Assembly: GCA_902764915.1 (NCBI GenBank)
Contig: CACWXY010000067.1
Span: forward strand, 1 to 45,066
DNA length: 45,066 bases
Reading direction: 5' to 3'
From: an uncultured Eubacteriales bacterium
Lineage (GTDB): Bacteria; Bacillota; Clostridia; Christensenellales; Aristaeellaceae
Shown here: positions 28,619 through 42,460 of the stretch, one piece after another
Numbering within the stretch: position 1 is the stretch's first letter
Layout: the number at the start of each line of letters is the position of its first letter
Notes under the pieces: generated by a model
Told to the model about the DNA's origin: nothing
Databases searched by the model: none
Seen by the model: the letters and a program-made list of their open reading frames with translations, nothing else
Program-made: the position numbers and the translations under genes

Positions 28619-28888
28619 CCTCCTTTCTATTCGTGCATGTTGACATTGTATCACCAAATAATATAATGGAAAACAGTTTGTTGATCACTTATGGTGAGGA
28701 TTGAAGGCCGAGGTGATATGGACGATCCGGTTGTTTGCCATGTACAGACAACTGTAATTTTACGATTCTCGTTGATGAATCCTGAGTATAACATTATAAT
28801 AGTTCCTGACGCAGAGACACATTTCATGATTGTGTCTCGAAGACAGAAAAATACAAATATACAGCCCCATGCAGTATATCTCATTTCC

Positions 28889-30691
28889 ATGGAAACATAC
28901 AGCAATTTCTGCATTTGTCACAATTATGCTGAGGCAAGCAAAGGCTTTTTTGCAAGCAGGCGCATCCGCTGTGCCTGCGGGAATATCATCGATGTCAAAA
29001 CCGATCGAATGGCTACCATGACCTGTCCTTCATGCGGTAATGATGTGGTATATGATCAGGCAAAGGGCCGGGATGCCAAATGCCCGGTCTGTCATGCAAA
29101 CCTGATTTCCGATGCGTCCTTCAGCAACCTGGTTCATTTCCGCTGTGCCACCTGCGGCTGCCAGCTGCATGCCGACAAGGCGGCTGCCACAATCACCTGC
29201 CCGGTGTGCGACGCTGTCAGTGATGTGCAGCAGGAGCTCAAAAAGGCGGAAATGCGCGAGCAGGGGATCCCCGCGGTCATCAGCTATGAAGGGGACAATA
29301 CTGTCTTTGTGTGGAAGCATCCCATGACGGACTTTGTCACAGGCAGCCAGCTGATCGTTCATGAGAGCCAGGAAGCAGTCTTCTTCCGCAATGGAGAAGC
29401 ACTGGATTCGTTTGGCCCCGGCCGTTATACCCTGGAGACAGGGATCCTTCCGAAAATGAATCAGCTGTACCGTATACCGGTCCAGGGACAGCCCTTCCAT
29501 GCGGAGGTCTATTTCGTCAACCTGACCACCCAGATGGGAATCAAATGGGGGACCGCCAGCAAGGTGGGACTCTTTGATCCGGCCACAGGGCTGCATGTGG
29601 AACTGGGCGCCTCCGGCTCCTTTAACCTGCGCGTGACAGATCCCAGAAAACTGCTGATCAAGCTGGTCGGTACGACAGGCAGTCTCACCCAGCGCGATCT
29701 GTACGACAGCGGGAATACAGGGGTCTCCGCGGGCGCGTCCACAGGCGTTCAGAAGGGCTACTTCCGCACCATGATTGCCACCAGGGTCAAGGGAAACCTG
29801 GCCAGGATCATCAAGACGAATCAGTTCAATGTGCTGGAACTGGATGAACATGTGGATAGCATCAGTACGGCGCTGAAGGATGCCATCAATCCGGAACTCG
29901 AGGAATATGGCCTTGAGATGCCGGAGTTCTATGTGGCCAATATTGTCACTCCGGACGATGATCCCAACTTCCGCCGGCTGAAACAGCAGCACGCGGAAAT
30001 GTATCTGAAAGTCCGGGAGGAAGCAATCCGCAAGGCAGAAGCGGAAGCCGCGTTTGAACGCAAGGCTGTGGAAGCCCAGACGGCGGCCCGCATGAAAGTG
30101 ATCGGCGCACAGGGCGAAGCGGATGCGGCCCGTATTACCGGACAGGCACAGGCGGACGTGTACCGTATGCAGGCTGAGGCAGAAGCACAGGAAATGCGCA
30201 TGAAGGGATACACATACCAGCAGGAGACAGCACGTCAGGTGGGCGTCGAGGCCATGCGCAATGGCGGAGGTGCAGGTGTCACCGGTATCGCAGGCGAAGC
30301 GATGCAGCTGGGTGTGGGCCTTGGCGCTGTGGGCGGTGTGATTGGCATGACCCGTGAGGCGATTCAGCCGATGATGCAGTCTGTTGGAGAGATGGCACAG
30401 CCTGCCGGGACGCAGCCTGTCGGGACGCAGCCTGCCGCGGCCCAGCCGGAGAGCTGGAACTGTACGTGCGGCAAGACCGGTATTACCAGCAGATTCTGCC
30501 CGGAGTGCGGCGCGAAGAAACCGGAACCGCCCAAGCCCTGGGACTGCAGCTGCGGGGAGAAGGGCATTACCAGCAAATTCTGCCCCAACTGTGGTGCGAA
30601 ACGACCGGAGACCTGGGACTGCCCAGCCTGCGGTGCAAAGAGACTGAGCGGCAAGTTCTGCCCGGAGTGCGGCGCGAAGAAGCCTGAATAA
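28889..30691 (+). CDS. SPFH/band-7 (YdjI-like, 'virion core protein' type) protein with N-terminal zinc ribbons and three C-terminal zinc-ribbon repeats.
   Basis: - The N-terminus has CxxC pairs: CPSCGNDVV...CPVCHANLI, CATCGCQ...CPVCDAV.
- The central region is an SPFH-like beta/alpha core plus a long Ala/Glu/Gln coiled coil: ISYEGDNTVFVWKHPMTDFVTGSQLIVHESQEAVFFRNGEALDSFGPGRYTLETG....
- The C-terminus has three repeats of W(N/D)CxCG(K/E)xGITS(R/K)FCPxCGAK.
- The start is uncertain: ATG at 28889 or 29009. The ORF-track start at 28691 lies in AT-rich promoter DNA. Confidence 0.7.
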   Translation: METYSNFCICHNYAEASKGFFASRRIRCACGNIIDVKTDRMATMTCPSCGNDVVYDQAKGRDAKCPVCHANLISDASFSNLVHFRCATCGCQLHADKAAATITCPVCDAVSDVQQELKKAEMREQGIPAVISYEGDNTVFVWKHPMTDFVTGSQLIVHESQEAVFFRNGEALDSFGPGRYTLETGILPKMNQLYRIPVQGQPFHAEVYFVNLTTQMGIKWGTASKVGLFDPATGLHVELGASGSFNLRVTDPRKLLIKLVGTTGSLTQRDLYDSGNTGVSAGASTGVQKGYFRTMIATRVKGNLARIIKTNQFNVLELDEHVDSISTALKDAINPELEEYGLEMPEFYVANIVTPDDDPNFRRLKQQHAEMYLKVREEAIRKAEAEAAFERKAVEAQTAARMKVIGAQGEADAARITGQAQADVYRMQAEAEAQEMRMKGYTYQQETARQVGVEAMRNGGGAGVTGIAGEAMQLGVGLGAVGGVIGMTREAIQPMMQSVGEMAQPAGTQPVGTQPAAAQPESWNCTCGKTGITSRFCPECGAKKPEPPKPWDCSCGEKGITSKFCPNCGAKRPETWDCPACGAKRLSGKFCPECGAKKPE

Positions 30692-30866: not shown

Positions 30867-33452
30867 ATGGCAGCATTGACCTGTAAGATGTGCGGCGGAA
30901 ACCTGGTGCTGACAGCAGACAGCAACGTCTGTGAGTGTGAATTCTGCGGAACCCGGCAAACAGTGCCCAATGCGGACAATGAGAAGAAGACCACACTCTT
31001 TAACGAGGCGAACCGTCTGCGGATGAACGCAGAATTTGATAAGGCGGCAGCAGTGTACGAGAGCATTGTCGCTGAATTCCCGGAGGAGGCTGAGGCCTAC
31101 TGGGGCCTTTGTCTGTGTACTTACGGCATTGAGTATGTGGATGATCCTGCAACGGGAGAAAAGAAACCCACCTGTCATCGGACGATGCCGCTGTCCATTA
31201 TGGAGGACAGCAATTTTGAGCAGGCCTGTGACTGTGCGGATGTTGTCGCCCGGCGGGTCTACCGGGATGAGGCAAAGGCCATTGACCGCATTCAGAAGGA
31301 TATCCTGTCCATCGTGAGTAACGAAGCGCCTTATGACGTATTTATCTGCTACAAGGAGACCAGTGAGGAAGGCAGCCGTACAGAGGACAGTGTGCTGGCA
31401 CAGGACATCTATGATGCTCTGACAGCAAAGGGACTGAAGGTGTTCTTCAGCCGGATTACGCTGGAGGATAAGCTGGGACAGCAGTACGAGCCGTATATCT
31501 ACGCGGCGCTTGCCTCGGCAAAGGTGATGGTCGCGGTGGGTACACAGTATGAGTATTACGATGCCGTGTGGGTGAAGAACGAATGGATGCGGTTCCTGGC
31601 CATGATGAAGAACGACCGGACCAAGACGCTGATTCCCTGCTTCAAGGATCTGGATGCCTATGACATGCCCAAAGAGTTCAAGCAGCTGCAGGCGCAGGAC
31701 ATGGGAAAGCTGGGCTGGCTGCAGGATCTGACGCGGGGCATTCTGAAACTGTGCGGGAAAGAAAACGGCACTGTGGGAAACAGTGCGGAACATGGGCCGC
31801 AGTCAGTGGTGCAGCAAACAGTGATCGGCGGCAATCCCACAGCGGTGGGTCTGCTGCAGAGGGCGAAGCTTTTCCTGGAGGATCAGAAATGGGAAGAAGC
31901 AGATCAGTATGCGGAACGTGTATTGGATATCGAACCAATGAACGCGGAAGCGTATCTGGTAAAGCTGATGGCGGAACTGAATGTCAGCAAGGAAGAAGCA
32001 CTGGCAGAACAGAAAATGCCTTTTGGTCAGTATGACAATTATCAAAAAGCTGTTCGTTTTGCGGATGAGGCGCGGAAGCAGCAGATCAAAGCGTTGAACG
32101 AAAAGGTGGAACAGCGCTACAGAGAAGAAAAAGAAAGGGCAGAAAACGCTCGAAAAACAGCCGTATTGGAAAAAGCAAAGACTGCATTGAAAGCGGCAGA
32201 ATCGCTGGAAGAATGCCAGGCGGTAACAGATATGCTGGGATCCATTGCCGGTTTTGCTGGCGTGACGGATATCATGGCGGGATGCACAGCAAAAGCTGCT
32301 GAAATCGAAGCGGTTAATGCTCGAATTGCAACAATGGAAACCGAATTAAAGGAGCAGCAGGAGAGATATCAGCAGGCATCAGAAAAAGCAATGGTTATTC
32401 ATCGTCAGCTCCAAGATACAGAAAAGGACAGAGACCGAATCGCTGCGTTACTGAAGAATGCCGAAAATGAGCTGAGCAATCTTCGGGGGCTTTTCACAGG
32501 AAAAAAGAGAGCAGAATTGGAGGCGGTAATCGCAACGAAAAGCAAAGAGCTCGCTAATGTTGAGGACCAGCTGGCAAAGGAGCAGTACGCTTACCAAACC
32601 GCACAAAACGGAATTCCTGAACAGCCAAACGAAACAGAAGTGAAATACATTATTGCAAACGAATATATGCAGGCCGGTCTTTATCGGAAAGCCTATAAGC
32701 GGTATAAACAGATTGTGGGATATAAAGACGTTGAAAGTCTGTTGAAAGATGATGATAATCTTGCAGCAGCAGTAGCAGCGGCACAGGAAGCAAAACGTGC
32801 ATCTTATCGCAATGTAGGGGGTTACGCAGTTTTTGGAAGTTATCCTCAAACTGCTGACGGTGTAGACAGCACTCCCATTGAGTGGCTTGTGCTGGACTAT
32901 GATGCGGAAAAGGACTGTGCATTGCTTATCAGTCGATACGGATTGGATGCGCAGCCATACAATAAAGAATGGACAAGCATTACTTGGGAACAGTGCACGC
33001 TGCGGACTTGGCTGAATGATACATTCCTGAACAAGGCATTTACAGCGCAGGAACAAACAGGAATTCTGGTGACCAACGTAGACAACAGCAGCAGTCAGGG
33101 ATACAGCAAGTGGAGTACCAGTGGAGGAAACAATACACAGGACAGGATTTTCCTGTTGAGCTATGCGGAGGCGAACAAGTATCTTGATGTTACGCATGAT
33201 AACAGTAACAACATGAAATCGAGAGTAGCACCGACAAACTATGCGAAAAAGCAGGGAGCCGTGACATGCAGCGACGACAAAACTGCGGATGGTGCAGCTG
33301 CAGGGCAGTGGTGGCTGCGTTCCCCCGGCTACTATCAGAGCCATGCCGCGCTCGTGTTCTGCGTCGGCTCTCTCGTCAACAGCAATGCCAGCGATGAAAA
33401 TGGTTGTGTTCGCCCTGCTTTGTGGATCAATCTGGAATCTGATATCTTCTGA
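30867..33452 (+). CDS. Zinc-ribbon / TIR-domain / coiled-coil / C-type-lectin-fold protein. This is the DGR target (variable) protein.
   Basis: - N-terminus: the zinc ribbon MAALTCKMCGGNLVLTADSNVCECEFCGTRQTV.
- TIR domain at aa ~156–290: YDVFICYKETSEEGSRTEDSVLAQDIYDALTAKGLKVFFSRITLEDKLGQQ...VMVAVGTQYEYYDAVWVKNEWMRFL. It has the DVFISY-like betaA, the G-L-K-VF alphaA/betaB and the W-x-x-x-E region.
- Coiled coil at aa 380–600.
- The C-terminal ~220 aa have a DUF1566/FGE-like C-type-lectin fold ending ...GQWWLRSPGYYQSHAALVFCVGSLVNSNASDENGCVRPALWINL. The VR is here.
- The RBS is aaggag. Confidence 0.8.
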   Translation: MAALTCKMCGGNLVLTADSNVCECEFCGTRQTVPNADNEKKTTLFNEANRLRMNAEFDKAAAVYESIVAEFPEEAEAYWGLCLCTYGIEYVDDPATGEKKPTCHRTMPLSIMEDSNFEQACDCADVVARRVYRDEAKAIDRIQKDILSIVSNEAPYDVFICYKETSEEGSRTEDSVLAQDIYDALTAKGLKVFFSRITLEDKLGQQYEPYIYAALASAKVMVAVGTQYEYYDAVWVKNEWMRFLAMMKNDRTKTLIPCFKDLDAYDMPKEFKQLQAQDMGKLGWLQDLTRGILKLCGKENGTVGNSAEHGPQSVVQQTVIGGNPTAVGLLQRAKLFLEDQKWEEADQYAERVLDIEPMNAEAYLVKLMAELNVSKEEALAEQKMPFGQYDNYQKAVRFADEARKQQIKALNEKVEQRYREEKERAENARKTAVLEKAKTALKAAESLEECQAVTDMLGSIAGFAGVTDIMAGCTAKAAEIEAVNARIATMETELKEQQERYQQASEKAMVIHRQLQDTEKDRDRIAALLKNAENELSNLRGLFTGKKRAELEAVIATKSKELANVEDQLAKEQYAYQTAQNGIPEQPNETEVKYIIANEYMQAGLYRKAYKRYKQIVGYKDVESLLKDDDNLAAAVAAAQEAKRASYRNVGGYAVFGSYPQTADGVDSTPIEWLVLDYDAEKDCALLISRYGLDAQPYNKEWTSITWEQCTLRTWLNDTFLNKAFTAQEQTGILVTNVDNSSSQGYSKWSTSGGNNTQDRIFLLSYAEANKYLDVTHDNSNNMKSRVAPTNYAKKQGAVTCSDDKTADGAAAGQWWLRSPGYYQSHAALVFCVGSLVNSNASDENGCVRPALWINLESDIF
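33308..33417 (+). other. DGR variable repeat (VR) at the 3' end of the target gene.
   Basis: The 110 bp are collinear with the TR at 36464–36573. Most mismatches sit where the TR has A (AAC/AAT codons). Confidence 0.6.
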
Positions 33453-33493
33453 TCTTTAATCTTTTGCGGGCAGTATACGGAAGAATGGGTAAA

Positions 33494-33630
33494 GCTGCAT
33501 GTGACTATGCAATTATGCGCCAATGAAAAGACGCTGCCCTGGATCAGGTGATGCAGATTACCTGCGTATATTATAAAAGCCATATATCTTGCTAGTTTTG
33601 CAGGATGTATGGCTTTTATGTTCTTATTCA
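33494..33630. repeat. ~140-bp direct repeat, copy A (~90% identical to 39664–39803). It contains a rho-independent terminator hairpin at ~33577–33622.
   Basis: The repeat reads gctgcatgtgactatgcaattatgcgccaatgaaaagacgctgccctggatcaggtgatgcagattacctgcgtatat...aaagccatatatcttgctagttttgcaggatgtatggcttttatgttcttattca. Confidence 0.7.
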
Positions 33631-36056: not shown

Positions 36057-36290
36057 GTGATGACCATCACACAGAAATCTCCAAAACAGTTCCGCTTCTC
36101 ATTGATTGGCCGCATGCAGGGCTATGTGATGGACATCGTGGAAGAACTGTATTATGCCAACGACATCTATGTCACACCCGCGAGCCGCTCGGGCTGGGCG
36201 CAGCGCCAGGCGCACCAGCGGAAAGCGATGGCGCCCCTGAAACTTCTCTCCTGGGTGGCGCAGGTCAGTATGGAACAGGGAGCGATTTAG
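36057..36290 (+). CDS. Small basic ORF immediately upstream of the TR. Weak candidate for the DGR accessory variability determinant (Avd).
   Basis: The only basis is position, upstream of the TR in a DGR. It is 77 aa, shorter than typical Avd (~110–130 aa), with no recognisable four-helix signature by eye. Confidence 0.2.
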   Translation: MMTITQKSPKQFRFSLIGRMQGYVMDIVEELYYANDIYVTPASRSGWAQRQAHQRKAMAPLKLLSWVAQVSMEQGAI

Positions 36291-36463
36291 CCGAAACAGT
36301 TTCAGCAGATCAGTGAGCAGTGCTGGAATACGCAGAATCTGCTTGGCGCGTGGATCATCAGCGATCAGAAGCGACTGAGCGGCGGAAAACAGAAGCAGGA
36401 ATCATCAGATCAGGGATCAGCACCCGAATAGGGTGTTCATCTGGGTACGGTATTGTACGGGTG

Positions 36464-36573
36464 GTGGTGGCTGCGTTCCCCCGGCACCAATCAGGACAAT
36501 GCCGCGAACGTCAACAATGACGGCTCTCTCAACAACAACAATGTCAACAATGACAGCGGTTGTGTCCGCCCCG
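36464..36573 (+). other. DGR template repeat (TR).
   Basis: Within this region, tggtggctgcgttcccccggcaccaatcaggacaatgccgcgaacgtcaacaatgacggctctctcaacaacaacaatgtcaacaatgacagcggttgtgtccgcccc is collinear with the VR. It is rich in AAC/AAT where the VR varies. A GC-rich structured spacer with a GNRA-looped hairpin (ctgcccgtGCGAacggcag) follows at 36590–36820. Confidence 0.65.
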
Positions 36574-36821
36574 TTTCCCCTTGCTTGCCAGCAGTCTGCC
36601 CGTGCGAACGGCAGCCAGTGCCCTGGGGAGAAGGAATACCGCTCCCTTTCGCAGGGAATTCCTCCGCAAGCGCTGCGGAGCCCTCGGAAAAACATGCCGA
36701 CGGAGGCCCGGACGGCGGGTGAAACAGACCGCCTTTCGCAATGCCTTTGGGACGCAGGGTTTGGCTTTATTCCTCTCGCCCTGCGTCCCCCGAGCGGCGA
36801 CTTTAAAACAGGAGGTTCATC

Positions 36822-37259
36822 ATGCTGAACATATGGTTTGGCGATATGCCGGATGTCATCTACGACACATCCACCTACTTCAGGCATTCTTACCGGGATC
36901 AATGGATCACCGACCCGCTGTCCGTGGAAATGATTCGTGATGTGGACCAGTCTGAAGTGGTCGATGCCAATCTGATTCAGAGCCCGGTCTTCGGTGCGAT
37001 TTCCCCTGTCCAACTGTCCGGTGGTGTCAAGACACTGATCCTGATCAGCAAGGTCAGGGATCAGGTCTTCAACGCGTCCAAATGCGGAGACAATTGCGCG
37101 AAGTGGCTGCTGAGGATCGCTGCAGACAGGAAAGTCGTTGTCAATCTCCGCCACCTTATGGACTTTGGGAATGAAGAGTTCAAAATCATGGTGATGAACA
37201 AAAAGAAGATTGCGCACAATATGCGGGAGCTCGTCCTGCTCGCGGGCGAGTATGTGTGA
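36822..37259 (+). CDS. Hypothetical 145-aa protein, first gene of the TR-downstream operon. It contains an LSGG-like motif (QLSGGVKTLILISK).
   Basis: The RBS is a strong aggagg. It lies 7 nt upstream of the ATPase gene. I recognise no family by eye. Confidence 0.5.
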   Translation: MLNIWFGDMPDVIYDTSTYFRHSYRDQWITDPLSVEMIRDVDQSEVVDANLIQSPVFGAISPVQLSGGVKTLILISKVRDQVFNASKCGDNCAKWLLRIAADRKVVVNLRHLMDFGNEEFKIMVMNKKKIAHNMRELVLLAGEYV

Positions 37260-37265
37260 GGCGTC

Positions 37266-38237
37266 ATGAACGGAAAGCATGCAGTAAAAGTCTCTGATAA
37301 GAGAGTTCGGTACAGCTTCGAGCTGGTGCGGAATATCACCGTCGTTCAGGGCAACAGCGGCACGGGCAAAACGACACTGTTTGATATGATATCTGCCTAT
37401 ACCAGGCTCAAGGAAAGAAGCGGCGTACAGATTGTCTGCGACAAGGCATGCGTTGCTCTTCACGCCGATTCAGACTGGCAGGCAAGGCTCAGAAGTATTC
37501 ATGACAGCATTGTCTTCATTGACGAGGATGCAGAATACATCGCGTCACATGCCTTTGCCTCATCCATCTGTCATACGGATAACTACTATGTCATCTTCTG
37601 CAGGGAATCCCTTCACGAACTCCCGTACAGTGTGGAGGAGATTTACGAAATCAAGACCAGTAAAAGGCTTCATACTTTCAAGAAGATGTATCGCCGGCAG
37701 AAGGATTATGTGTACGCCAAAGCTGAGGGAAGGGCAAAGACTTCTGCTTTACTGACAGAAGACTCGCATGCAGGGTATCAGTTTTACCTGCATCATTACG
37801 ATGGCACATCGGTTGTCTGCAGTTCTGCCGGCTCAAATTCAAGCATCTTTTCATGGCTTCAGGTGCATCACGATGAAAAAGTGTTTGTTGTTGCCGATGG
37901 TGCTGCTTTCGGCTCGGAGATGAACCGCGTCATGAAATTGCAGCACCAGTTTCCTGACAAGATCACCCTATGCCTGCCAGAATGCTTTGAGTGGCTGATC
38001 CTGCAATCGGGACTGATCGATATACCAGGCCTGGATGCACTGCTCGAAAGCCCAAGCGAAAGCATCGATTCACAGCGGTATTTCAGTTGGGAGAACTTTT
38101 TCGAAGAATACTTGATTCAGCAGACAGCCGGTACTCATTACGCATATTCCAAGTCGCAGATTCACAGGTTCTACACAGTGCGGGAGAACAGCAACAGAAT
38201 CGTAGCGCTGATCGCAGCCAATATGCCGAAATCATGA
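37266..38237 (+). CDS. P-loop NTPase (ABC/SMC-like Walker A).
   Basis: Walker A is VVQGNSGTGKTTLFDMI. A Walker-B-like SIVFIDEDAEYI is present. A C-terminal ~150-aa domain reads ...KVFVVADGAAFGSEMNRV.... The stop is 2 nt before the RT start. Confidence 0.6.
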   Translation: MNGKHAVKVSDKRVRYSFELVRNITVVQGNSGTGKTTLFDMISAYTRLKERSGVQIVCDKACVALHADSDWQARLRSIHDSIVFIDEDAEYIASHAFASSICHTDNYYVIFCRESLHELPYSVEEIYEIKTSKRLHTFKKMYRRQKDYVYAKAEGRAKTSALLTEDSHAGYQFYLHHYDGTSVVCSSAGSNSSIFSWLQVHHDEKVFVVADGAAFGSEMNRVMKLQHQFPDKITLCLPECFEWLILQSGLIDIPGLDALLESPSESIDSQRYFSWENFFEEYLIQQTAGTHYAYSKSQIHRFYTVRENSNRIVALIAANMPKS

Positions 38238-38238
38238 C

Positions 38239-39303
38239 ATGCGCAAGTTTGATTATGATAGGATTTGTGACTTTGGCAATCTCTACCGCGCCTATCTTGC
38301 TTCAAGACGAAGCAAGCGCGGTACTCGGGAAGTCATTCAATTCGAGATGAATGTAGGCCCAAATCTCTGTCAGTTACAGGAAGAACTCAGGAACCAGACT
38401 TATCGGCTTAGCGGTTACTACCACTTTACCATCCATGATCCGAAGGTCAGGGAGATCTACGCCCTGCACTATCGTGACCGGATTCTGCAGCACAGCCTTT
38501 GTGATAATGTGCTGGCTCCATATTTTGAGAATCATCTCATCTATGACAACGCAGCCTGTCGGACCGGAAAAGGAACCCTCTTTGCAATTAACCGGCTCAA
38601 CGGATTTATGCATGATCATTTCCGACAGCATGGAACTGACGGCTACTTTCTGAAGTGTGACATCCGCAAGTTCTTTGACAGTATTGATCATCAGATCTTG
38701 CAGCAGAGACTTGCGGCGATTGTTGACGATCCGAGAACGCTGCAGCTTCTCTTTCACATCATTGACAGTTACAAGGTGTCTCCCGGGAAAGGGATTCCCA
38801 TGGGGAACCAGACCAGCCAGTGGTTTGCCCTGTTTTATCTGGATCCGCTCGATCGTCTTGTCAAAGAAAAGCTCCGAATCAAATACTATACCCGATACAT
38901 GGATGACTGCATTCTGGTGCATCACAGCAAGGAGGCGCTCCACCAAGCTCTGTCTCAGATGCGGGAATTGGTTGAAAGCCTTGGGCTTTCTTTCAACGAA
39001 AAGACCCAGGTTTTCCCCATTGTTCACGTTGTTGAGTATTTGGGATGGCGTTTCTATCTGACGGAAACCGGCGCTGTGGTTCGCAGGCTGAAGAAGCACA
39101 GCAAGATCCGATGGAAGCATAGGCTGCGGAAGCTCAAGGCCCTCTATGCTTCAGGCGATGTAGAAGTCTCAAAGATCCTTGAAAGCGTTCAGAGCTTTCA
39201 TAACCACATGAGTTACGGGAATACATGGAAATTGTATCACGGCGTCATGGACAACTATGTTTTGACAAGAGAAACAAGAAACCCGAGAGTACCTCCTTCA
39301 TAA
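38239..39303 (+). CDS. Diversity-generating retroelement (DGR) reverse transcriptase.
   Basis: - The N-terminus reads ICDFGNLYRAYLASRRSKRGTREVIQFE....
- RT motifs: FTIHDPKVREIYALHYRDRILQHSL (1/2), FLKCDIRKFFDSIDH (A), GIPMGNQTSQWFALFYLDPLD (DGR-specific I/MGxxxSQ motif), YTRYMDDCIL (YxDD). Confidence 0.9.
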   Translation: MRKFDYDRICDFGNLYRAYLASRRSKRGTREVIQFEMNVGPNLCQLQEELRNQTYRLSGYYHFTIHDPKVREIYALHYRDRILQHSLCDNVLAPYFENHLIYDNAACRTGKGTLFAINRLNGFMHDHFRQHGTDGYFLKCDIRKFFDSIDHQILQQRLAAIVDDPRTLQLLFHIIDSYKVSPGKGIPMGNQTSQWFALFYLDPLDRLVKEKLRIKYYTRYMDDCILVHHSKEALHQALSQMRELVESLGLSFNEKTQVFPIVHVVEYLGWRFYLTETGAVVRRLKKHSKIRWKHRLRKLKALYASGDVEVSKILESVQSFHNHMSYGNTWKLYHGVMDNYVLTRETRNPRVPPS

Positions 39304-39338
39304 TCGCTGAATGAGAGTCAAAACAGATGATCGTCCGC

Positions 39339-39376
39339 AACCGCTGCTCAGCATTTGTCTGGCAGCGGTTTTTCTC
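39339..39376 (+). terminator. Rho-independent terminator after the RT (AACCGCTGC ... GCAGCGGTT followed by TTTTTCT).
   Basis: Seen directly in the sequence. Confidence 0.6.
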
Positions 39377-39663
39377 TGCTGTCATTTGGGTCTTGACAAC
39401 TACTCAGCCATGATACAGTTCTTCGTATAGGACGGTTGTCTTTCCGTGTGTTACTGCACCGTAGATAGAGGGGACAGGAATACAGCGCCTGCGCATTTCC
39501 AACATTGTCCCCCGTTCAATTTCTGTTGTGATCTTCGCCACAAATACCTGCGGGAACACACCATCTTACGACACCAACGGCTTACCTTTCGTAGTGACCT
39601 TTACGCATTTATAGTCACTGGTAAATGCTGTGCCCTGGAACAGTATACTGCATAGTGGATAAG

Positions 39664-39803
39664 GTTGCATGTGACTATGCAATTATGCGCCAATGAAAAA
39701 ACGATGCCCTGGATCAGGTGATGCAGATTACCTGCGTATATGATAATAGCCATACATCTTGTTTGATTTTTGCAGGATGTATGGCTTTTATGTTCTTATT
39801 CAA
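39664..39803. repeat. ~140-bp direct repeat, copy B (see 33494–33630). It contains a perfect terminator hairpin, AGCCATACATC...GATGTATGGCT-TTT.
   Basis: Seen directly in the sequence. Confidence 0.7.
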
Positions 39804-40316: not shown

Positions 40317-40721
40317 TCACCTCATACCAGCTGCTGTTGGTCTTGGCGATGACCTGTACAAAGGAGCCGTTTTATAGGTCGCCAGCACCTTGTACTTGGT
40401 GCCCGGCCCGGAGTGCAGGCGCAGGGTGCCTTTCCGGGTTTCCGCGCCGGAAAAGTCCGTGTTCACCCGCCAGACCTCCGTCCGGTTATCGTCACCAGGA
40501 GCGGTAAAGTTCACGCGGGGCGTCATGGCGGCAGGCACCGGAGCGCGAAGAATGCAGCCCTCCGCCAGCCGCTGCCATTTCCCAGCTTCATCGATGGGAT
40601 GCACCAGAGTCAATTCATATTCGCCGTTCAGCGTTTCCGTGACCTCCGCCGACAACGGAGCCAGGGTTCCGTTGCCGTTAGTAGAGAAGTCGGTGCAGTC
40701 GGCGGGATAGACGCAGATCAT
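40317..40721 (-). pseudogene. Phage tail-fibre / tail-endopeptidase (Tal-like) N-terminal fragment. The adjacent ORF 40072..40320 is an unassigned fragment.
   Basis: The fragment reads MICVYPADCTDFSTNGNGTLAPLSAEVTETLNGEYELTLVHPIDEAGKW.... This resembles the N-terminus of siphovirus Tal / prophage-tail proteins (M.I.LYD..F..NG.G.L......V.EELNGEYEL). The RBS is ggaggtg. Confidence 0.4.
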
Positions 40722-40799
40722 GGGGATCACCTCCAGATGGGTATGAAAATAGCCCCGTCCATGCTGAACGAGGCTTGAGTATTAAATCGCTGTAGACGA

Positions 40800-41209
40800 T
40801 TATGCCTGCATTTTTTGATTAATCCGATTGACCTTCATCCGAATGCTTACATAGATAATCAGCCAGATTGCAGCAAAGGCTGCAATAAATATCAGGGTAA
40901 ATGCTCCGATCCTTTCAACGGGAAGCCAGCCGTTCAGAAGATAGATTCCCATATAGTCAATATAAAGCACTGCCATTTGGATAAGCGCTGCCATTGGCTT
41001 GGGCAGGGTTTCGATCTGATAGACAATGGAAACACCAGCGGCAATAAACGCCATTACTGTTGTTGAAATAATTCCAAGCACGACCTGGTCAACCGCCAAT
41101 GTTTCCAGAACGCCAGCTGCTTTCAGGCACAGCCATACAATCGCCATAATCACAGGGCCACCCCATGCGGCAACCAGTCCTCGCTTACAGAAATTCTTCA
41201 CATGCTTAT
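40800..41209 (-). CDS. DUF3021-type 4-TM membrane protein, the usual partner of LytTR regulators.
   Basis: The protein reads MNKHVKNFCKRGLVAAWGGPVIMAIVWL.... It sits immediately downstream of, and abutting, the LytTR gene. Confidence 0.65.
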
Positions 41210-41650
41210 TCATAATCCGTACCTCCTCTTCAAATCCGAGAAGCATCTTCTTGAAATGCATTCGGTATATCCGCTTTTGAAAACAGCATCGACAGCCCCG
41301 GAAAGCTGCACGCGGAATCGACCTATGTGTGACCAGTTGGCAATCGCTGATTTGCTGATCCGCTCATAATGGCCCGGCAGATTCTTCTCTAACTCGTACA
41401 GTCTTTTCCTGATCAGGTACTGTTTTCCGTCCTGACAATGAGCATAAGTCCGCTCCCCTTCAACGAAGAAACAATCAATCTCCCTCAGATCGAGCATGAC
41501 GATTTCTTCTTCCTCATAACCGGGAATCTGGTCTGTCAGACTGTCCTGTGTCACAAGGCGTTCTATCTCATCGATCAATGGCGTCCGTTGATGAACGGTT
41601 GCTACGATTTCCTCTTCATGGTTCCGATCCAGCTGCAGCTTGAAGATCAT
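41210..41650 (-). CDS. LytTR-family DNA-binding protein (stand-alone).
   Basis: The protein reads ...IVMLDLREIDCFFVEGERTYAHCQDGKQYLIRKRLYELEKNLPGHYERISKSAIANWSHI.... The RBS is ggaggtg. Confidence 0.7.
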   Translation of the reverse strand: MIFKLQLDRNHEEEIVATVHQRTPLIDEIERLVTQDSLTDQIPGYEEEEIVMLDLREIDCFFVEGERTYAHCQDGKQYLIRKRLYELEKNLPGHYERISKSAIANWSHIGRFRVQLSGAVDAVFKSGYTECISRRCFSDLKRRYGL

Positions 41651-41761: not shown

Positions 41762-42460
41762 TTAAAGATATCGCCAATTCGGCTTGATAACCACCTTCGT
41801 CACTACTCCCGTCCACGATATGGCATTCGTGCCGGGCTTCAGCACCGGGAACTCACCGTTCATGTGATCGTTCATCAGGGTAGTACCCTGATAGGCTTCC
41901 TGCAGCATGGAGTCGATAACGATGCTCCCGGAGATGTTCTCCAGTTCCACGATGGTCGTGCCCACCATGAGCGTGATGTTCCCGGAGCCTGTGACCGTCA
42001 GGATCGGCTCAGAATGCACGCAGCCCGGATTCGTGATGATCGTCCCGGATGCGGTGACTGTGATGTCAGTGGCAGCGTCGGCATAGAAGAACGGATAGCA
42101 GCGGAAGTTGACGGCAAAGGTACAGTGCGGATTGCCCCGGAGCACCTTTTCAAAAGGGACCTGGTTGGCGATCCGCGCTTTATAGTAGCCACCCGTCCGG
42201 TTGGCAAAGGTCACGGTGCCGCTGCCTTTCAGCCAGGCGGCAATAGCCGGGATCTGCGCCGGATCGGAGATAAAGCAAGTGGCAGTCAGGATCATGTCGT
42301 CATACACGTCTTCGCCTTCCAGCTGCGTCAGGCTCCCCGGCCTGCCGGGCACATTGGTCTGGGTGCTTCGCTCCAGCGGGATGGTAATAGGCGGCTGCTC
42401 CGTCACGTGGATGCCGTAGGTGCGGCAGTCCACCCCGTTCCAGAGAAAATAGTCCTGCAT
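41762..42460 (-). CDS. Siphovirus-type distal tail protein (Dit / Sipho_tail family).
   Basis: The 232-aa protein is beta-rich: MQDYFLWNGVDCRTYGIHVTEQPPITIPLERSTQTNVPGRPGSL.... Length and motifs are typical of the Dit N-domain. The RBS is ggagag. Confidence 0.55.
   Translation of the reverse strand: MQDYFLWNGVDCRTYGIHVTEQPPITIPLERSTQTNVPGRPGSLTQLEGEDVYDDMILTATCFISDPAQIPAIAAWLKGSGTVTFANRTGGYYKARIANQVPFEKVLRGNPHCTFAVNFRCYPFFYADAATDITVTASGTIITNPGCVHSEPILTVTGSGNITLMVGTTIVELENISGSIVIDSMLQEAYQGTTLMNDHMNGEFPVLKPGTNAISWTGVVTKVVIKPNWRYL

What the first reader, a model, noticed from the sequence alone, without database searches (positions are those of the whole stretch)
36822..39303. Non-canonical DGR operon: a 145-aa protein and a 323-aa P-loop ATPase inserted between TR and RT, translationally coupled to the RT
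- Canonical DGRs run avd-TR-RT, with the RT start within a few hundred bp of the TR.
- Here two genes (36822..37259, 37266..38237) sit between them. The intergenic gaps are 7 nt and 2 nt.
- The ATPase has a clean Walker A (GNSGTGKTT) and a Walker-B-like IVFIDE.
- The small protein carries an LSGG-like segment that could supply an ABC-type signature in trans.
- This may be a novel DGR accessory module (a helicase/ATPase assisting retrohoming) or an embedded two-gene defence system.
Basis: partly seen in the sequence, partly recalled or inferred. Interest (0 to 1): 0.7.

Follow-up and report, generated by a model that had tools for sequence, protein, structure and literature searches.

The report
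Nuclease-like gene pair inserted in DGR
The two genes between the template repeat and the reverse transcriptase are a widespread, uncharacterised, self-contained gene pair (a small ATP-binding-fold protein plus an ATPase–nuclease-like protein) that landed inside a decaying diversity-generating retroelement; they are not a new helper of that retroelement.

Summary
ORFs 36822-37259 (145 aa) and 37266-38237 (323 aa) lie between TR (36459-36576) and the RT (38239-39303), separated by 6 nt and 1 nt.

The "DGR accessory" reading is not supported.
- The pair is Pfam DUF4869 plus a mini ABC-type P-loop fused to an OLD-like Toprim domain.
- It is a stand-alone two-gene module: 78 of 80 surveyed genome loci have no RT nearby, and several lie in defence islands.
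- The closest pair-less DGRs (RT 76-84% identical) join the same spacer directly to the RT. The pair is therefore a clean 1.43-kb promoter-less insertion (~36808-38238) that replaced the RT's ribosome-binding region.
- Pair-carrying RTs form one clade nested among pair-less DGRs.
- Nearly every pair-carrying copy has a different DGR-inactivating lesion. Here avd is 5'-truncated with an in-frame TAG, and 13 of 29 TR/VR mismatches are not at adenines.

Most likely mechanism (inferred): DUF4869 supplies an LSGG signature in trans to the ATPase's Walker A/B, forming one composite ATP site that gates a Toprim nuclease. This would be an OLD/PARIS-like conflict module.

The family is uncharacterised, which gives moderate interest. 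A recurrent link of one sub-clade to DUF6273-type DGR loci remains unexplained.

The parts
30867..33452 (+). DGR-type target gene: zinc ribbon, TPR, TIR_2 domain and C-terminal DUF6273 domain that carries the VR
   Evidence: Pfam DUF6273 E=1.1e-28 and TIR_2 E=4.4e-12. It is only ~70% nt identical to the targets of the closest cassettes, L191 and L036.
33303..33420 (+). Variable repeat (VR)
   Evidence: 75% identical to TR over 118 nt. Of 29 mismatches, 16 are at TR adenines and 13 are not. It is the only VR-like copy in the window.
36057..36431 (+). avd remnant: N-terminal helix missing, in-frame TAG at 36288-36290
   Evidence: Weak hits to NCBIfam Avd and PHROG 'Avd protein of DGR'. Relatives have an intact N-terminus, and L121 has CAG at the TAG position.
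36459..36576 (+). Template repeat (TR)
   Evidence: Homologous to the TRs of L036, L115, L141 and L027.
36577..36807 (+). TR-RT spacer of the DGR, retained upstream of the insertion
   Evidence: Colinear with pair-less DGRs up to window ~36805-36814 (L027 at 88.7%, also L110, L115, L141). The left junction reads GGCGACTTTAAAAC|AGGAGG.
36808..38238 (+). Inserted promoter-less cassette: RBS, DUF4869 gene, ATPase-Toprim gene and stop. It replaces the ~30-nt RBS region that precedes the RT in pair-less relatives.
   Evidence: Boundaries from blastn against L027, L110, L115 and L141 and from junction sequences. The RBS AGGAGGTyCrTC-ATG is shared with stand-alone pairs L016 and L018.
36822..37259 (+). 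DUF4869 protein (145 aa): degenerate ABC-ATPase-like fold with QLSGG (37011-37025), an acid-less 'Walker B' strand VFNAS, CGDN, and NLRH with an invariant His
37266..38237 (+). 323-aa ATPase: N-terminal minimal ABC-type P-loop (Walker A 37350-37376, Walker B 37509-37526, no signature motif) and C-terminal Toprim-like domain (LLTEDS 37749-37766, VVADGAAFGSE 37887-37919, LPECFEW 37974-37994)
38239..39303 (+). DGR reverse transcriptase, intact in this copy, starting 1 nt after the ATPase stop
   Evidence: RVT_1 E=4.9e-23, phrog_1423 E=1.9e-116, GNQTSQ and YMDD motifs, 84% aa identity to the RT of pair-less L027.
39304..39420 (+). Right end of the shared cassette. Homology to all relatives stops at ~39418-39425.
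33471..33630 (+). Direct repeat, copy 1, just after the target gene stop
39641..39802 (+). Direct repeat, copy 2 (90% identical). With copy 1 it brackets a 6.2-kb block holding the resolvase, GmrSD fragment, avd remnant, TR, pair and RT.

Best explanation
The two genes are an autonomous two-gene module, not a DGR component. One protein (323 aa) is a miniature OLD-like enzyme: a minimal ABC-type P-loop with Walker A and B but no signature motif, fused to a Toprim-like nuclease domain with invariant acidic residues. The other (DUF4869, 145 aa) is a stripped-down ABC-fold protein that keeps the LSGG signature and an H-loop-like His but lacks Walker A and the Walker B acids.

Inferred mechanism: the two proteins form a heterodimer with one composite ATP site (Walker A/B from the ATPase, LSGG from DUF4869). 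ATP binding or hydrolysis at that site controls the Toprim nuclease, as in OLD, Gabija GajA and PARIS-type conflict systems. The module is most likely anti-phage or anti-mobile-element.

In one lineage of Clostridia DGRs that target DUF6273 proteins, a promoter-less copy (RBS plus two ORFs, ~36808-38238) was inserted once. It lies exactly between the TR spacer and the RT start codon and replaced the RT's own ribosome-binding region. The pair and the RT are therefore now read from the DGR transcript, and RT translation depends on coupling to the ATPase stop (TGAcATG).

The DGR around the pair is no longer maintained. This copy has been relocated as a fragment (36048-~39420) next to a non-cognate target. 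Its avd is truncated and carries a stop codon, and TR and VR differ at many non-adenine positions.

Shown: gene identity, distribution, insertion boundaries, the single clade of pair-carrying RTs, the lesions and the folds. Inferred: heterodimer formation, the composite ATP site, nuclease activity, a defence role, and co-transcription.
For: Stand-alone nature:
- DUF4869 and the ATPase are adjacent in about 77 of 80 species-representative genome loci, from Clostridia, Coriobacteriia, Bacteroidaceae and Flexilinea. An RT lies within 10 kb in only 2 of them.
- Eight inspected contexts of ATPase homologues at 54-83% identity have no RT.
- The family is large: 5481 clusters at 90% identity and 1785 at 50%.
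- One natural fusion of DUF4869 to the ATPase N-domain exists, P0377.

Insertion:
- Pair-less relatives L027, L110, L115 and L141 align to window ..36805-36814 and then resume at 38239.
- In 80 loci found with an RT profile, the pair occurs only with RTs at least 93% identical to this one.
- Pair-carrying RTs are monophyletic and nested among pair-less DGRs.
- The junction is shared with L036 at 90% identity, while the interior of the pair is only 51-70% identical. This indicates a later allele swap.

Fold:
- DUF4869: ABC/SMC/Rad50 heads.

Defence context:
- L012: the pair lies between PDC-M33A/C with a GajB-like helicase and a Mokosh-like helicase.
- L002: next to DpdG/DpdH.
- L017: near a CARF-PDDEXK gene.
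- It is rare in phages: 1 of 2.9 M viral contigs and 5 of 50,697 phage records.

DGR decay:
- avd lesions: window (TAG plus 5' truncation), L036 (TGG>TGA), L014 (TGG>TAG), L191 (2-nt deletion).
- RT lesions: L121 (CAG>TAG), L030 (three 1-nt indels), L116 (1-nt deletion).
- TR/VR mismatches at non-adenines: 13 of 29 here and 15 of 33 in L036, against 0 of 15 in pair-less L115.
Against: - No sequence profile places the proteins in OLD, PARIS or any PADLOC family, so both defence and nuclease activity are guilt by association.
- The pair is not clearly better preserved than the DGR parts in this lineage: a 5-nt deletion in DUF4869 in L026, an ATG>ATA start in L191, and a fragmented ATPase in stand-alone L192-195.
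- One sub-clade of the pair (ATPase at least 63% identical to this one) lies next to DGR parts or DUF6273 genes in five separate configurations: the window group, L036, L014-16, L019-21 and L038. That is more than a one-off accident would predict.
- RT dN/dS stays low at 0.06-0.18.
Confidence: 0.65

Rival explanations
1. The pair is a genuine DGR accessory module: an ATPase or nuclease that assists cDNA synthesis or retrohoming in this DGR lineage, co-expressed with and coupled to the RT.
For: - The position between TR and RT, the 1-nt stop-start junction and the same strand are conserved in two diverged lineages, window and L036 (~76% nt identity).
- Related pairs sit next to DGR parts in L014-16, L019-21 and L038.
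- A MutS-like (ABC-type) accessory gene is already known in some DGRs (PMC5758913).
Against: - 78 of 80 pair loci lack any RT.
- The nearest DGR relatives lack the pair, and at least one of them (L115) looks active, with 15 of 15 TR/VR mismatches at adenines.
- Of the seven pair-carrying copies, all except L026 (whose avd is not on the contig) carry an inactivating lesion in avd or the RT.
- TR/VR mismatches in pair-carrying loci are not adenine-specific.
Confidence: 0.05
2. The pair and the RT have become a new functional unit derived from a DGR. This would be an RT-armed OLD-like system analogous to retron Eco8 (ncRNA, RT and OLD nuclease), using the TR-spacer RNA, with avd no longer needed.
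For: - The RT is intact and translationally coupled here, in L026, L191 and L036, while avd is broken.
- RT dN/dS is 0.06-0.18.
- The ATPase fold list includes the retron Eco8 OLD nuclease and the retron Ec83 ATPase.
Against: - The RT is itself disrupted in 3 of 6 close copies: L030, L116 and L121.
- In L014-16 the RT is absent while the pair persists.
- The pair works without an RT almost everywhere else.
- Low dN/dS mostly reflects history before the recent lesions.
Confidence: 0.05
3. The pair is autonomous but not an immune system. It could be a selfish addiction-type module or a DNA repair or maintenance factor of mobile islands. Its position in the DGR is a neutral accident in a decaying prophage or island region.
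For: - Neighbours are variable and often housekeeping (L008-L011, L017, L019).
- There are no PADLOC hits.
- It occurs on megaplasmids, annotated only as hypothetical.
- Genomes can carry several copies, and alleles are mosaic.
- The window region holds prophage remnants, a resolvase and a GmrSD fragment.
Against: - ABC-ATPase plus Toprim architectures characterised so far (OLD, Gabija, PARIS, retron effectors) act in conflict systems (established knowledge).
- Three contexts are defence islands.
- The distribution is patchy across phyla.
Confidence: 0.2

Closest known systems
OLD-family nucleases (P2 Old, class 2 OLD of Burkholderia pseudomallei, Gabija GajA, retron Eco8 effector)
   Different: - The ATPase part is only ~135 aa, has no signature motif and no dimerisation insert.
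- A separate 145-aa ABC-like protein carries the LSGG motif.
- No OLD, AAA_15, AAA_21 or Toprim profile reaches even E=5.
- The acidic motif is D-x6-E rather than a recognisable DxD.
PARIS (AriA ABC ATPase + AriB DUF4435/Toprim nuclease)
   Same: A two-gene module that combines ABC-type ATPase elements with a Toprim-type effector. AriA appears among the weak structural matches of DUF4869 and among the P-loop-level PADLOC hits of the ATPase.
   Different: The domains are partitioned differently: here the P-loop and Toprim are fused, and the partner is a catalytically dead ABC-like protein. There is no significant sequence match to AriA or AriB models.
Asymmetric ABC dimers with one degenerate nucleotide site (e.g. 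EcfA/EcfA', heterodimeric ABC exporters)
   Same: The proposed logic is the same: one consensus ATP site is built from the Walker A/B of one subunit and the signature of the other, while the second site is degenerate. EcfA-A' is among the fold matches.
   Different: Both subunits are far smaller than normal NBDs. One lacks a P-loop altogether, there is no transporter partner, and the dimer itself is only inferred.
Canonical avd-TR-RT DGRs with DUF6273 / C-type-lectin-fold targets, and known DGR accessory genes (avd, HRDC, MSL, CH1)
   Same: The surrounding cassette is an ordinary architecture-B DGR: target-VR, avd, TR, spacer, RT. Unrelated genes sandwiched between DGR components have been catalogued before (PMC5758913).
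   Different: This pair is not among the described accessory genes. It does not co-vary with DGR RTs, and its host DGRs are degenerate.

Membership tests
Pfam DUF4869 (PF16163) | Match to the family HMM above the gathering score | tested here: met
   182.4 bits against a cut-off of 28.9, E=4e-54, covering profile positions 1-126 of 128.
Functional DGR | RT of DGR type (I/LGxxxSQ-like motif, YxDD) | tested here: met
   MGNQTSQ at aa 188-194 and YMDD at aa 220-223. phrog_1423 E=1.9e-116. 76-84% identity to RTs of canonical DGR cassettes.
Functional DGR | TR/VR pair whose differences fall at TR adenines | tested here: not met
   Of 29 mismatches, 16 are at A and 13 at C, G or T. Pair-less relative L115 has 15 of 15 at A.
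Functional DGR | Intact accessory protein Avd (required by the Bordetella-type mechanism) | tested here: not met
   The N-terminal helix is missing and there is an in-frame TAG at 36288, where L121 has CAG.
DGR accessory gene (in the sense of avd, HRDC, MSL, CH1) | Recurrent co-occurrence with DGR RTs across DGR lineages | tested here: not met
   An RT lies near the pair in 2 of 80 pair loci. The pair lies near the RT in 2 of 80 RT loci, both at least 93% identical to this RT. All pair-carrying RTs form one small clade.
OLD-family nuclease | Full ABC ATPase domain (Walker A, Q-loop, signature, Walker B, H-loop, dimerisation insert) in the same polypeptide | tested here: not met
   Walker A and Walker B are only 45 aa apart with no LSGG between them. 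Only sub-threshold P-loop hits were found.
OLD-family nuclease | C-terminal Toprim domain with catalytic acidic residues | tested here: inconclusive
PARIS (AriA/AriB) | AriA-type ABC ATPase and separate AriB DUF4435 nuclease, detectable with PADLOC models | tested here: not met
   AriA E=0.0086 over aa 18-50 only; there is no AriB hit, and DUF4869 has no hit at all.
Any catalogued anti-phage system (PADLOC-DB v2) | Significant match of both proteins to the system's models | tested here: not met
   DUF4869 has 0 families. The ATPase has only P-loop-region hits, the best being LmuB at E=1.9e-5 over aa 12-46.
Anti-phage defence system (functional class) | Protection against phage or mobile elements when expressed | not testable with these tools
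   Only context is available: defence-island neighbours in L012, L002 and L017.
ABC-type heterodimer with a composite ATP site | Physical complex in which the DUF4869 LSGG contacts ATP bound to the ATPase Walker A | not testable with these tools
   No complex prediction was available. Support is indirect: complementary motif loss, strict adjacency and one fusion protein, P0377.

The most novel reading that the evidence does not exclude
In this lineage the DGR has been converted rather than merely broken. The RT, the TR-spacer RNA and the DUF4869/ATPase-Toprim pair would now work together as an RT-armed OLD-like conflict system, a retron-Eco8-like logic evolved from a DGR. This would explain why the pair sits exactly at the RT start codon, why that junction is conserved between lineages ~76% identical, why avd is lost repeatedly, and why one sub-clade of the pair keeps turning up beside DGR parts.
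Probability: 0.05. Interest if true: 0.8.

Novelty: new variant of a known kind. Interest (0 to 1): 0.45.

Why it matters
For DGR biology the result is mostly a caution. A tidy-looking "non-canonical operon" is here a hitchhiking cassette in a dying DGR. Gene order and translational coupling alone do not make an accessory gene.

The more useful product is the pair itself.
- It is a very common module (thousands of sequence clusters, hundreds of gut and rumen species) that is completely uncharacterised. DUF4869 has no literature at all.
- It looks like the smallest OLD/PARIS-type ATPase-Toprim machine yet seen, with the ABC signature motif supplied by a separate dead-ATPase subunit.
- If confirmed, it would add a compact two-gene candidate to the defence-system catalogue.
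- It would also be a simple model for how one composite ATP site can gate a Toprim nuclease.

The repeated, independent avd and RT lesions in pair-carrying DGRs give a testable case of how a DGR is inactivated by insertion at its RT ribosome-binding site.

Tried and rejected
- Sequence searches of both proteins, and of the ATPase profile, against PDB chains gave only P-loop-level hits.
- PADLOC, NCBIfam and PHROGs gave nothing beyond the P-loop for the pair.
- A Pfam scan of 32 ATPase homologues at E up to 5 found no family for the C-terminal half.
- hhalign of the DUF4869 profile against the ATPase profile showed no relationship (probability 0.7%).
- The afdb50 fold library was unavailable.
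- Literature searches for DUF4869 and PF16163 found 0 papers.
- The promoter and terminator scan found nothing above shuffled expectation.

Ideas considered and dropped:
- TAG recoding as an explanation for the avd stop. Rejected because L121 has CAG there, and the other lineages carry TGA, TAG at other codons, or indels.
- L030 as an RT chimera. It is colinear with the window at 93% identity with three 1-nt indels.
- Two independent insertions in the window and L036. The junction is shared at 90% identity and the RTs are sister lineages, so one insertion followed by an internal allele swap fits better.
- The pair as a phage-borne DGR accessory. It is almost absent from viral collections.
- The pair-less state as a secondary loss. 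The pair-carrying RTs are nested within many pair-less DGRs.
Full report
**1. What is in the sequence**

- 36822-37259 (145 aa)
- 37266-38237 (323 aa)
- 38239-39303 (354 aa)

Six nucleotides separate the first stop from the second start. One nucleotide (TGAcATG) separates the ATPase stop from the RT start.

The DGR parts are also present:
- TR 36459-36576 matches VR 33303-33420 at 75% over 118 nt. The VR lies at the 3' end of an 861-aa gene with TIR_2 and DUF6273 domains.
- The RT has RVT_1, matches phrog_1423 at E=1.9e-116, and carries the DGR-type GNQTSQ and YMDD motifs.
- An avd-like ORF lies at 36057-36431.

The stated motifs are correct: Walker A GNSGTGKTT and Walker B IVFIDE in the ATPase, and QLSGG in the small protein.

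**2. What the two proteins are**

The small protein is a full-length member of Pfam DUF4869 (E=4e-54). No paper in the searched library mentions DUF4869 or PF16163.

The 323-aa protein has no Pfam family.
- Only its first ~100 residues give sub-threshold P-loop hits (nSTAND, AAA_23, AAA_29, ABC_tran). This holds for 32 homologues scanned down to E=5.
- Its PADLOC hits are confined to the P-loop hairpin of ABC/SMC-type defence ATPases (LmuB, PbeC, AriA, PtuA). DUF4869 has no PADLOC hit.

- MutS, UvrA, PtuA, the retron Ec83 ATPase and the retron Eco8 OLD nuclease also appear.

In an alignment of 32 homologues the C-terminal half has invariant acidic residues: E165, D166, D211, E218, E239 and E242.

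The DUF4869 model (pLDDT 93.3) matches almost only ABC/SMC/Rad50-type ATPase heads.
- Foldseek ranks PtuA, AriA and ABC NBDs first, none significantly.

The conserved motifs of DUF4869 line up with the second half of an ABC domain:
- QLSGG at the start of a helix
- a 'Walker B' strand without acids (VFNAS)
- CGDN
- NLRH with an invariant His

DUF4869 has no P-loop. The ATPase has Walker A and B only 45 residues apart and no signature motif. The two proteins have therefore lost complementary halves of the ABC ATP site.

Three further observations link the two proteins:
- They are almost always adjacent (see section 3).
- One database protein fuses DUF4869 to the ATPase N-domain (P0377).
- The gap between the two genes is usually 6-8 nt.

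From this I infer a heterodimer with one composite ATP site controlling a Toprim nuclease. This is an inference. No complex model or experiment was available, and profile-profile comparison shows no homology between the two proteins.

**3. Is the pair tied to DGRs? Survey from the pair's side**

The ATPase has 3616 homologue clusters and DUF4869 has 5481. At 50% clustering, DUF4869 has 1785 representatives, nearly all 140-160 aa.

Eight genomic contexts of ATPase homologues at 54-83% identity all show DUF4869 immediately upstream and no RT.

A scan of one genome per species found at least 385 species with a relative, and the best 80 loci were fetched with 10-kb flanks.
- DUF4869 is adjacent in 73 loci by a crude best-hit measure, and in four more on inspection.
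- A relative of the window RT is present in only two: L030, which is the same cassette as the window, and L036.
- Hosts include Lachnospiraceae, Oscillospiraceae, Ruminococcus, Christensenellales, Collinsella and other Coriobacteriia, Bacteroidaceae and Flexilinea.

Some contexts are defence islands:
- In L012 the pair sits between PDC-M33A/C with a GajB-like UvrD helicase and a Mokosh MkoA/C-like helicase.
- In L002 it follows DpdG/DpdH.
- In L017 a CARF-PDDEXK gene is 4 kb away.

Other contexts are ordinary chromosomal neighbourhoods.

The pair is nearly absent from viruses and poorly annotated on plasmids:
- One of 2.9 million viral contigs carries it (L190, beside an endolysin).
- Five of 50,697 phage records carry it.
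- Three large plasmids carry it, annotated as hypothetical.

**4. Survey from the RT's side**

The closest RTs with usable flanks that lack the pair are L027-29 (84% aa), L110-114 (80%), L115 (76%), L141 (81% over the part present) and L132 (91% over aa 15-218).

- L027 aligns to window 36333-36811 (88.7%) and then directly to 38239-39256.
- L110, L115 and L141 break at window 36805-36814 and resume at about 38245-38262.
- Junction sequences place the left edge at GGCGACTTTAAAAC|AGGAGG and the right edge between the ATPase stop and the RT ATG.
- Pair-less relatives have a ~30-nt RBS region in that position.
- The RBS now in front of DUF4869 (AGGAGGTyCrTC-ATG) is the one seen in stand-alone pairs.

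The inserted unit is therefore a promoter-less RBS-ORF-ORF cassette of about 1.43 kb.

In an RT-profile scan of metagenome contigs (171 relatives, best 80 examined), only L116 and L121 carry the pair. Both have RTs at least 93% identical to this one.

A neighbour-joining tree places all pair-carrying RTs with a usable sequence (window, L026, L116, L121, L036) in one clade. L030's frameshifted RT could not be placed. That clade is sister to pair-less L027/L132 and nested among pair-less DGRs. One insertion is the simplest history.

Window and L036 are colinear from avd to the RT end at ~76% nt identity, but the identity is uneven:
- 80-94% in avd, TR and spacer, including the left junction
- 51-70% across DUF4869 and the first two thirds of the ATPase
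- 74-92% from the ATPase C-terminus into the RT

The window's pair is closer to stand-alone pairs (79-83% ATPase identity) than to L036's (64%). The interior of the pair was therefore probably exchanged by recombination with another allele. Genomes can hold more than one copy, for example Ruminococcus sp. YE71 (L060 and L071).

**5. State of the host DGRs**

Pair-less L115 has 15 TR/VR mismatches, all at TR adenines. The window has 16 at A and 13 elsewhere, and L036 has 18 and 15.

Lesions in avd:

| Locus | Lesion |
|---|---|
| L110, L115, L141 (pair-less) | intact |
| Window | lacks the N-terminal helix; CAG>TAG at 36288 (L121 retains CAG) |
| L036 | TGG>TGA |
| L014 | TGG>TAG |
| L191 | 2-nt deletion |

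Lesions in the RT:

| Locus | Lesion |
|---|---|
| L121 | CAG>TAG at codon 169 |
| L030 | three 1-nt indels |
| L116 | 1-nt deletion |

In L014-16 there is no RT at all, and the 'TR' is a TR/VR hybrid running into a target 3' end.

Every lesion is different, so they arose independently after the insertion. Pairwise dN/dS is low for both the pair (0.03-0.17) and the RT (0.06-0.18). This mostly reflects earlier history.

The pair is not immune to decay:
- L026 has a 5-nt deletion in DUF4869.
- L191 has ATG>ATA at the ATPase start.
- Stand-alone L192-195 have a fragmented ATPase.

With these numbers I cannot claim that the pair is better preserved than the RT in this lineage.

**6. The window copy in particular**

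Homology to all relatives runs only from 36048 to about 39418-39425. L026, L030, L116 and L036 each have a different downstream flank. L191 and L036 share an upstream flank (target plus a 169-175-aa ORF) that the window lacks.

In the window the cassette fragment sits in a 6.2-kb block bracketed by ~160-nt direct repeats (33471-33630 and 39641-39802, 90% identical). The block also holds a BRCT-like ORF, a serine resolvase and a GmrSD N-terminal fragment.

The adjacent target gene is only ~70% nt identical to the targets of L191 and L036. The TR here is therefore probably not the template that shaped this VR.

Downstream lie prophage remnants: a Dit-like gene and a truncated tail gene. The wider window is ordinary chromosome, with glycoside hydrolase, solute-binding protein and EamA genes.

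**7. Interpretation**

The pair is an autonomous module, and the DGR location is secondary.

Mechanistically it works most like OLD, Gabija or PARIS-type ATPase-Toprim systems. It is not a member of those families by any sequence criterion tested. It also differs in architecture, with a mini P-loop fused to Toprim and the signature motif on a separate dead-ABC subunit.

**8. What remains unexplained**

Relatives of this particular pair allele (ATPase at least 63% identical) lie beside DGR parts or DUF6273 genes in five configurations:
- the window group
- L036
- L014-16, with avd and a TR/VR hybrid
- L019-21, following DUF6273 genes
- L038, also following a DUF6273 gene

No DUF6273 hit occurs elsewhere in the flanks of the other pair loci.

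Common descent from one DGR-embedded ancestor, followed by TR x VR recombination and ectopic exchange between pair copies, can account for this. I have not shown it. A functional link, or a conversion of the DGR RT into a partner of the pair, is not excluded, though it is unlikely given the RT lesions and the RT-less copies.

**9. Comparison with the literature**

The large DGR survey recognises avd, HRDC, MSL and CH1 as accessory genes. It treats genes shared by a few DGRs, or merely sandwiched between DGR components, as weak evidence of function (PMC5758913). The present pair belongs in that last category.

Noticed in passing
window 30867-33452: The DGR-type target protein combines a zinc ribbon, TPR, a TIR_2 domain (aa 158-280), a long coiled coil and a DUF6273 variable C-terminus. 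It looks like a TIR-effector protein with a hypervariable sensor end, and it has no PADLOC match.
   Followed up: partly
window 33471-33630 and 39641-39802: Direct repeats of ~160 nt (90% identical, last 35 nt identical, each containing a hairpin) bracket a 6.2-kb block with a BRCT-like ORF, a serine resolvase, a GmrSD fragment and the truncated DGR cassette. This suggests the block entered or was duplicated by recombination at this repeat.
   Followed up: partly
window 36048 and ~39418-39425; loci L026, L030, L116, L036, L191: Cassettes 93-99% identical to the window's have a sharp common right end but completely different downstream flanks. The avd-TR-pair-RT unit has therefore moved or been recombined recently in several genomes.
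   Followed up: partly
window 36288-36290; L036, L014, L191 avd; L121, L030, L116 RT: Six loci carry seven different inactivating lesions in avd or the RT (nonsense codons, small indels and, in the window, a 5' truncation of avd). The three pair-less relatives examined have intact avd.
   Followed up: yes
L014:7307-7453 (also L015, L016): Downstream of avd the 'TR' is a hybrid. Its 5' part is TR-like and its 3' part is the end of a DUF6273 target gene, including its stop codon. It is followed by the pair with no RT, apparently the product of TR x VR recombination.
   Followed up: partly
L019:3113-7497, L038:247-786: Close relatives of the pair sit directly downstream of DUF6273-domain genes without avd, TR or RT. 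DUF6273 hits occur nowhere else in the flanks of the ~99 pair loci examined.
   Followed up: partly
P0377 (271 aa): A database protein fuses a complete DUF4869 domain to the N-terminal P-loop domain of the partner ATPase. The sequence ends shortly after Walker B and may be truncated.
   Followed up: no
window 40317-40730(-), 41762-42460(-), 40800-41650(-): Prophage remnants lie downstream of the cassette: a Dit-like distal tail protein and the first ~66 residues of a large tail protein. They are separated by a LytTR regulator and a DUF3021 membrane protein.
   Followed up: no
window 28691-30691 and repeats 30398-30688: The gene upstream of the target encodes an SPFH/Band-7 protein ending in tandem zinc-ribbon repeats (84-nt DNA repeats encoding CPECGAKK-like units), preceded by 15-nt tandem repeats.
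   Followed up: no
L082, L099, L101, L109 (Collinsella loci): Some genomes carry a second, divergent copy of an ATPase (~35% identity) or of DUF4869 (46%) about 8 kb from the main pair on the opposite strand.
   Followed up: no
L190:6551-12672: In the single viral contig carrying the pair, it lies between an amidase-type endolysin and a 1227-aa protein, the position typical of prophage cargo genes.
   Followed up: no
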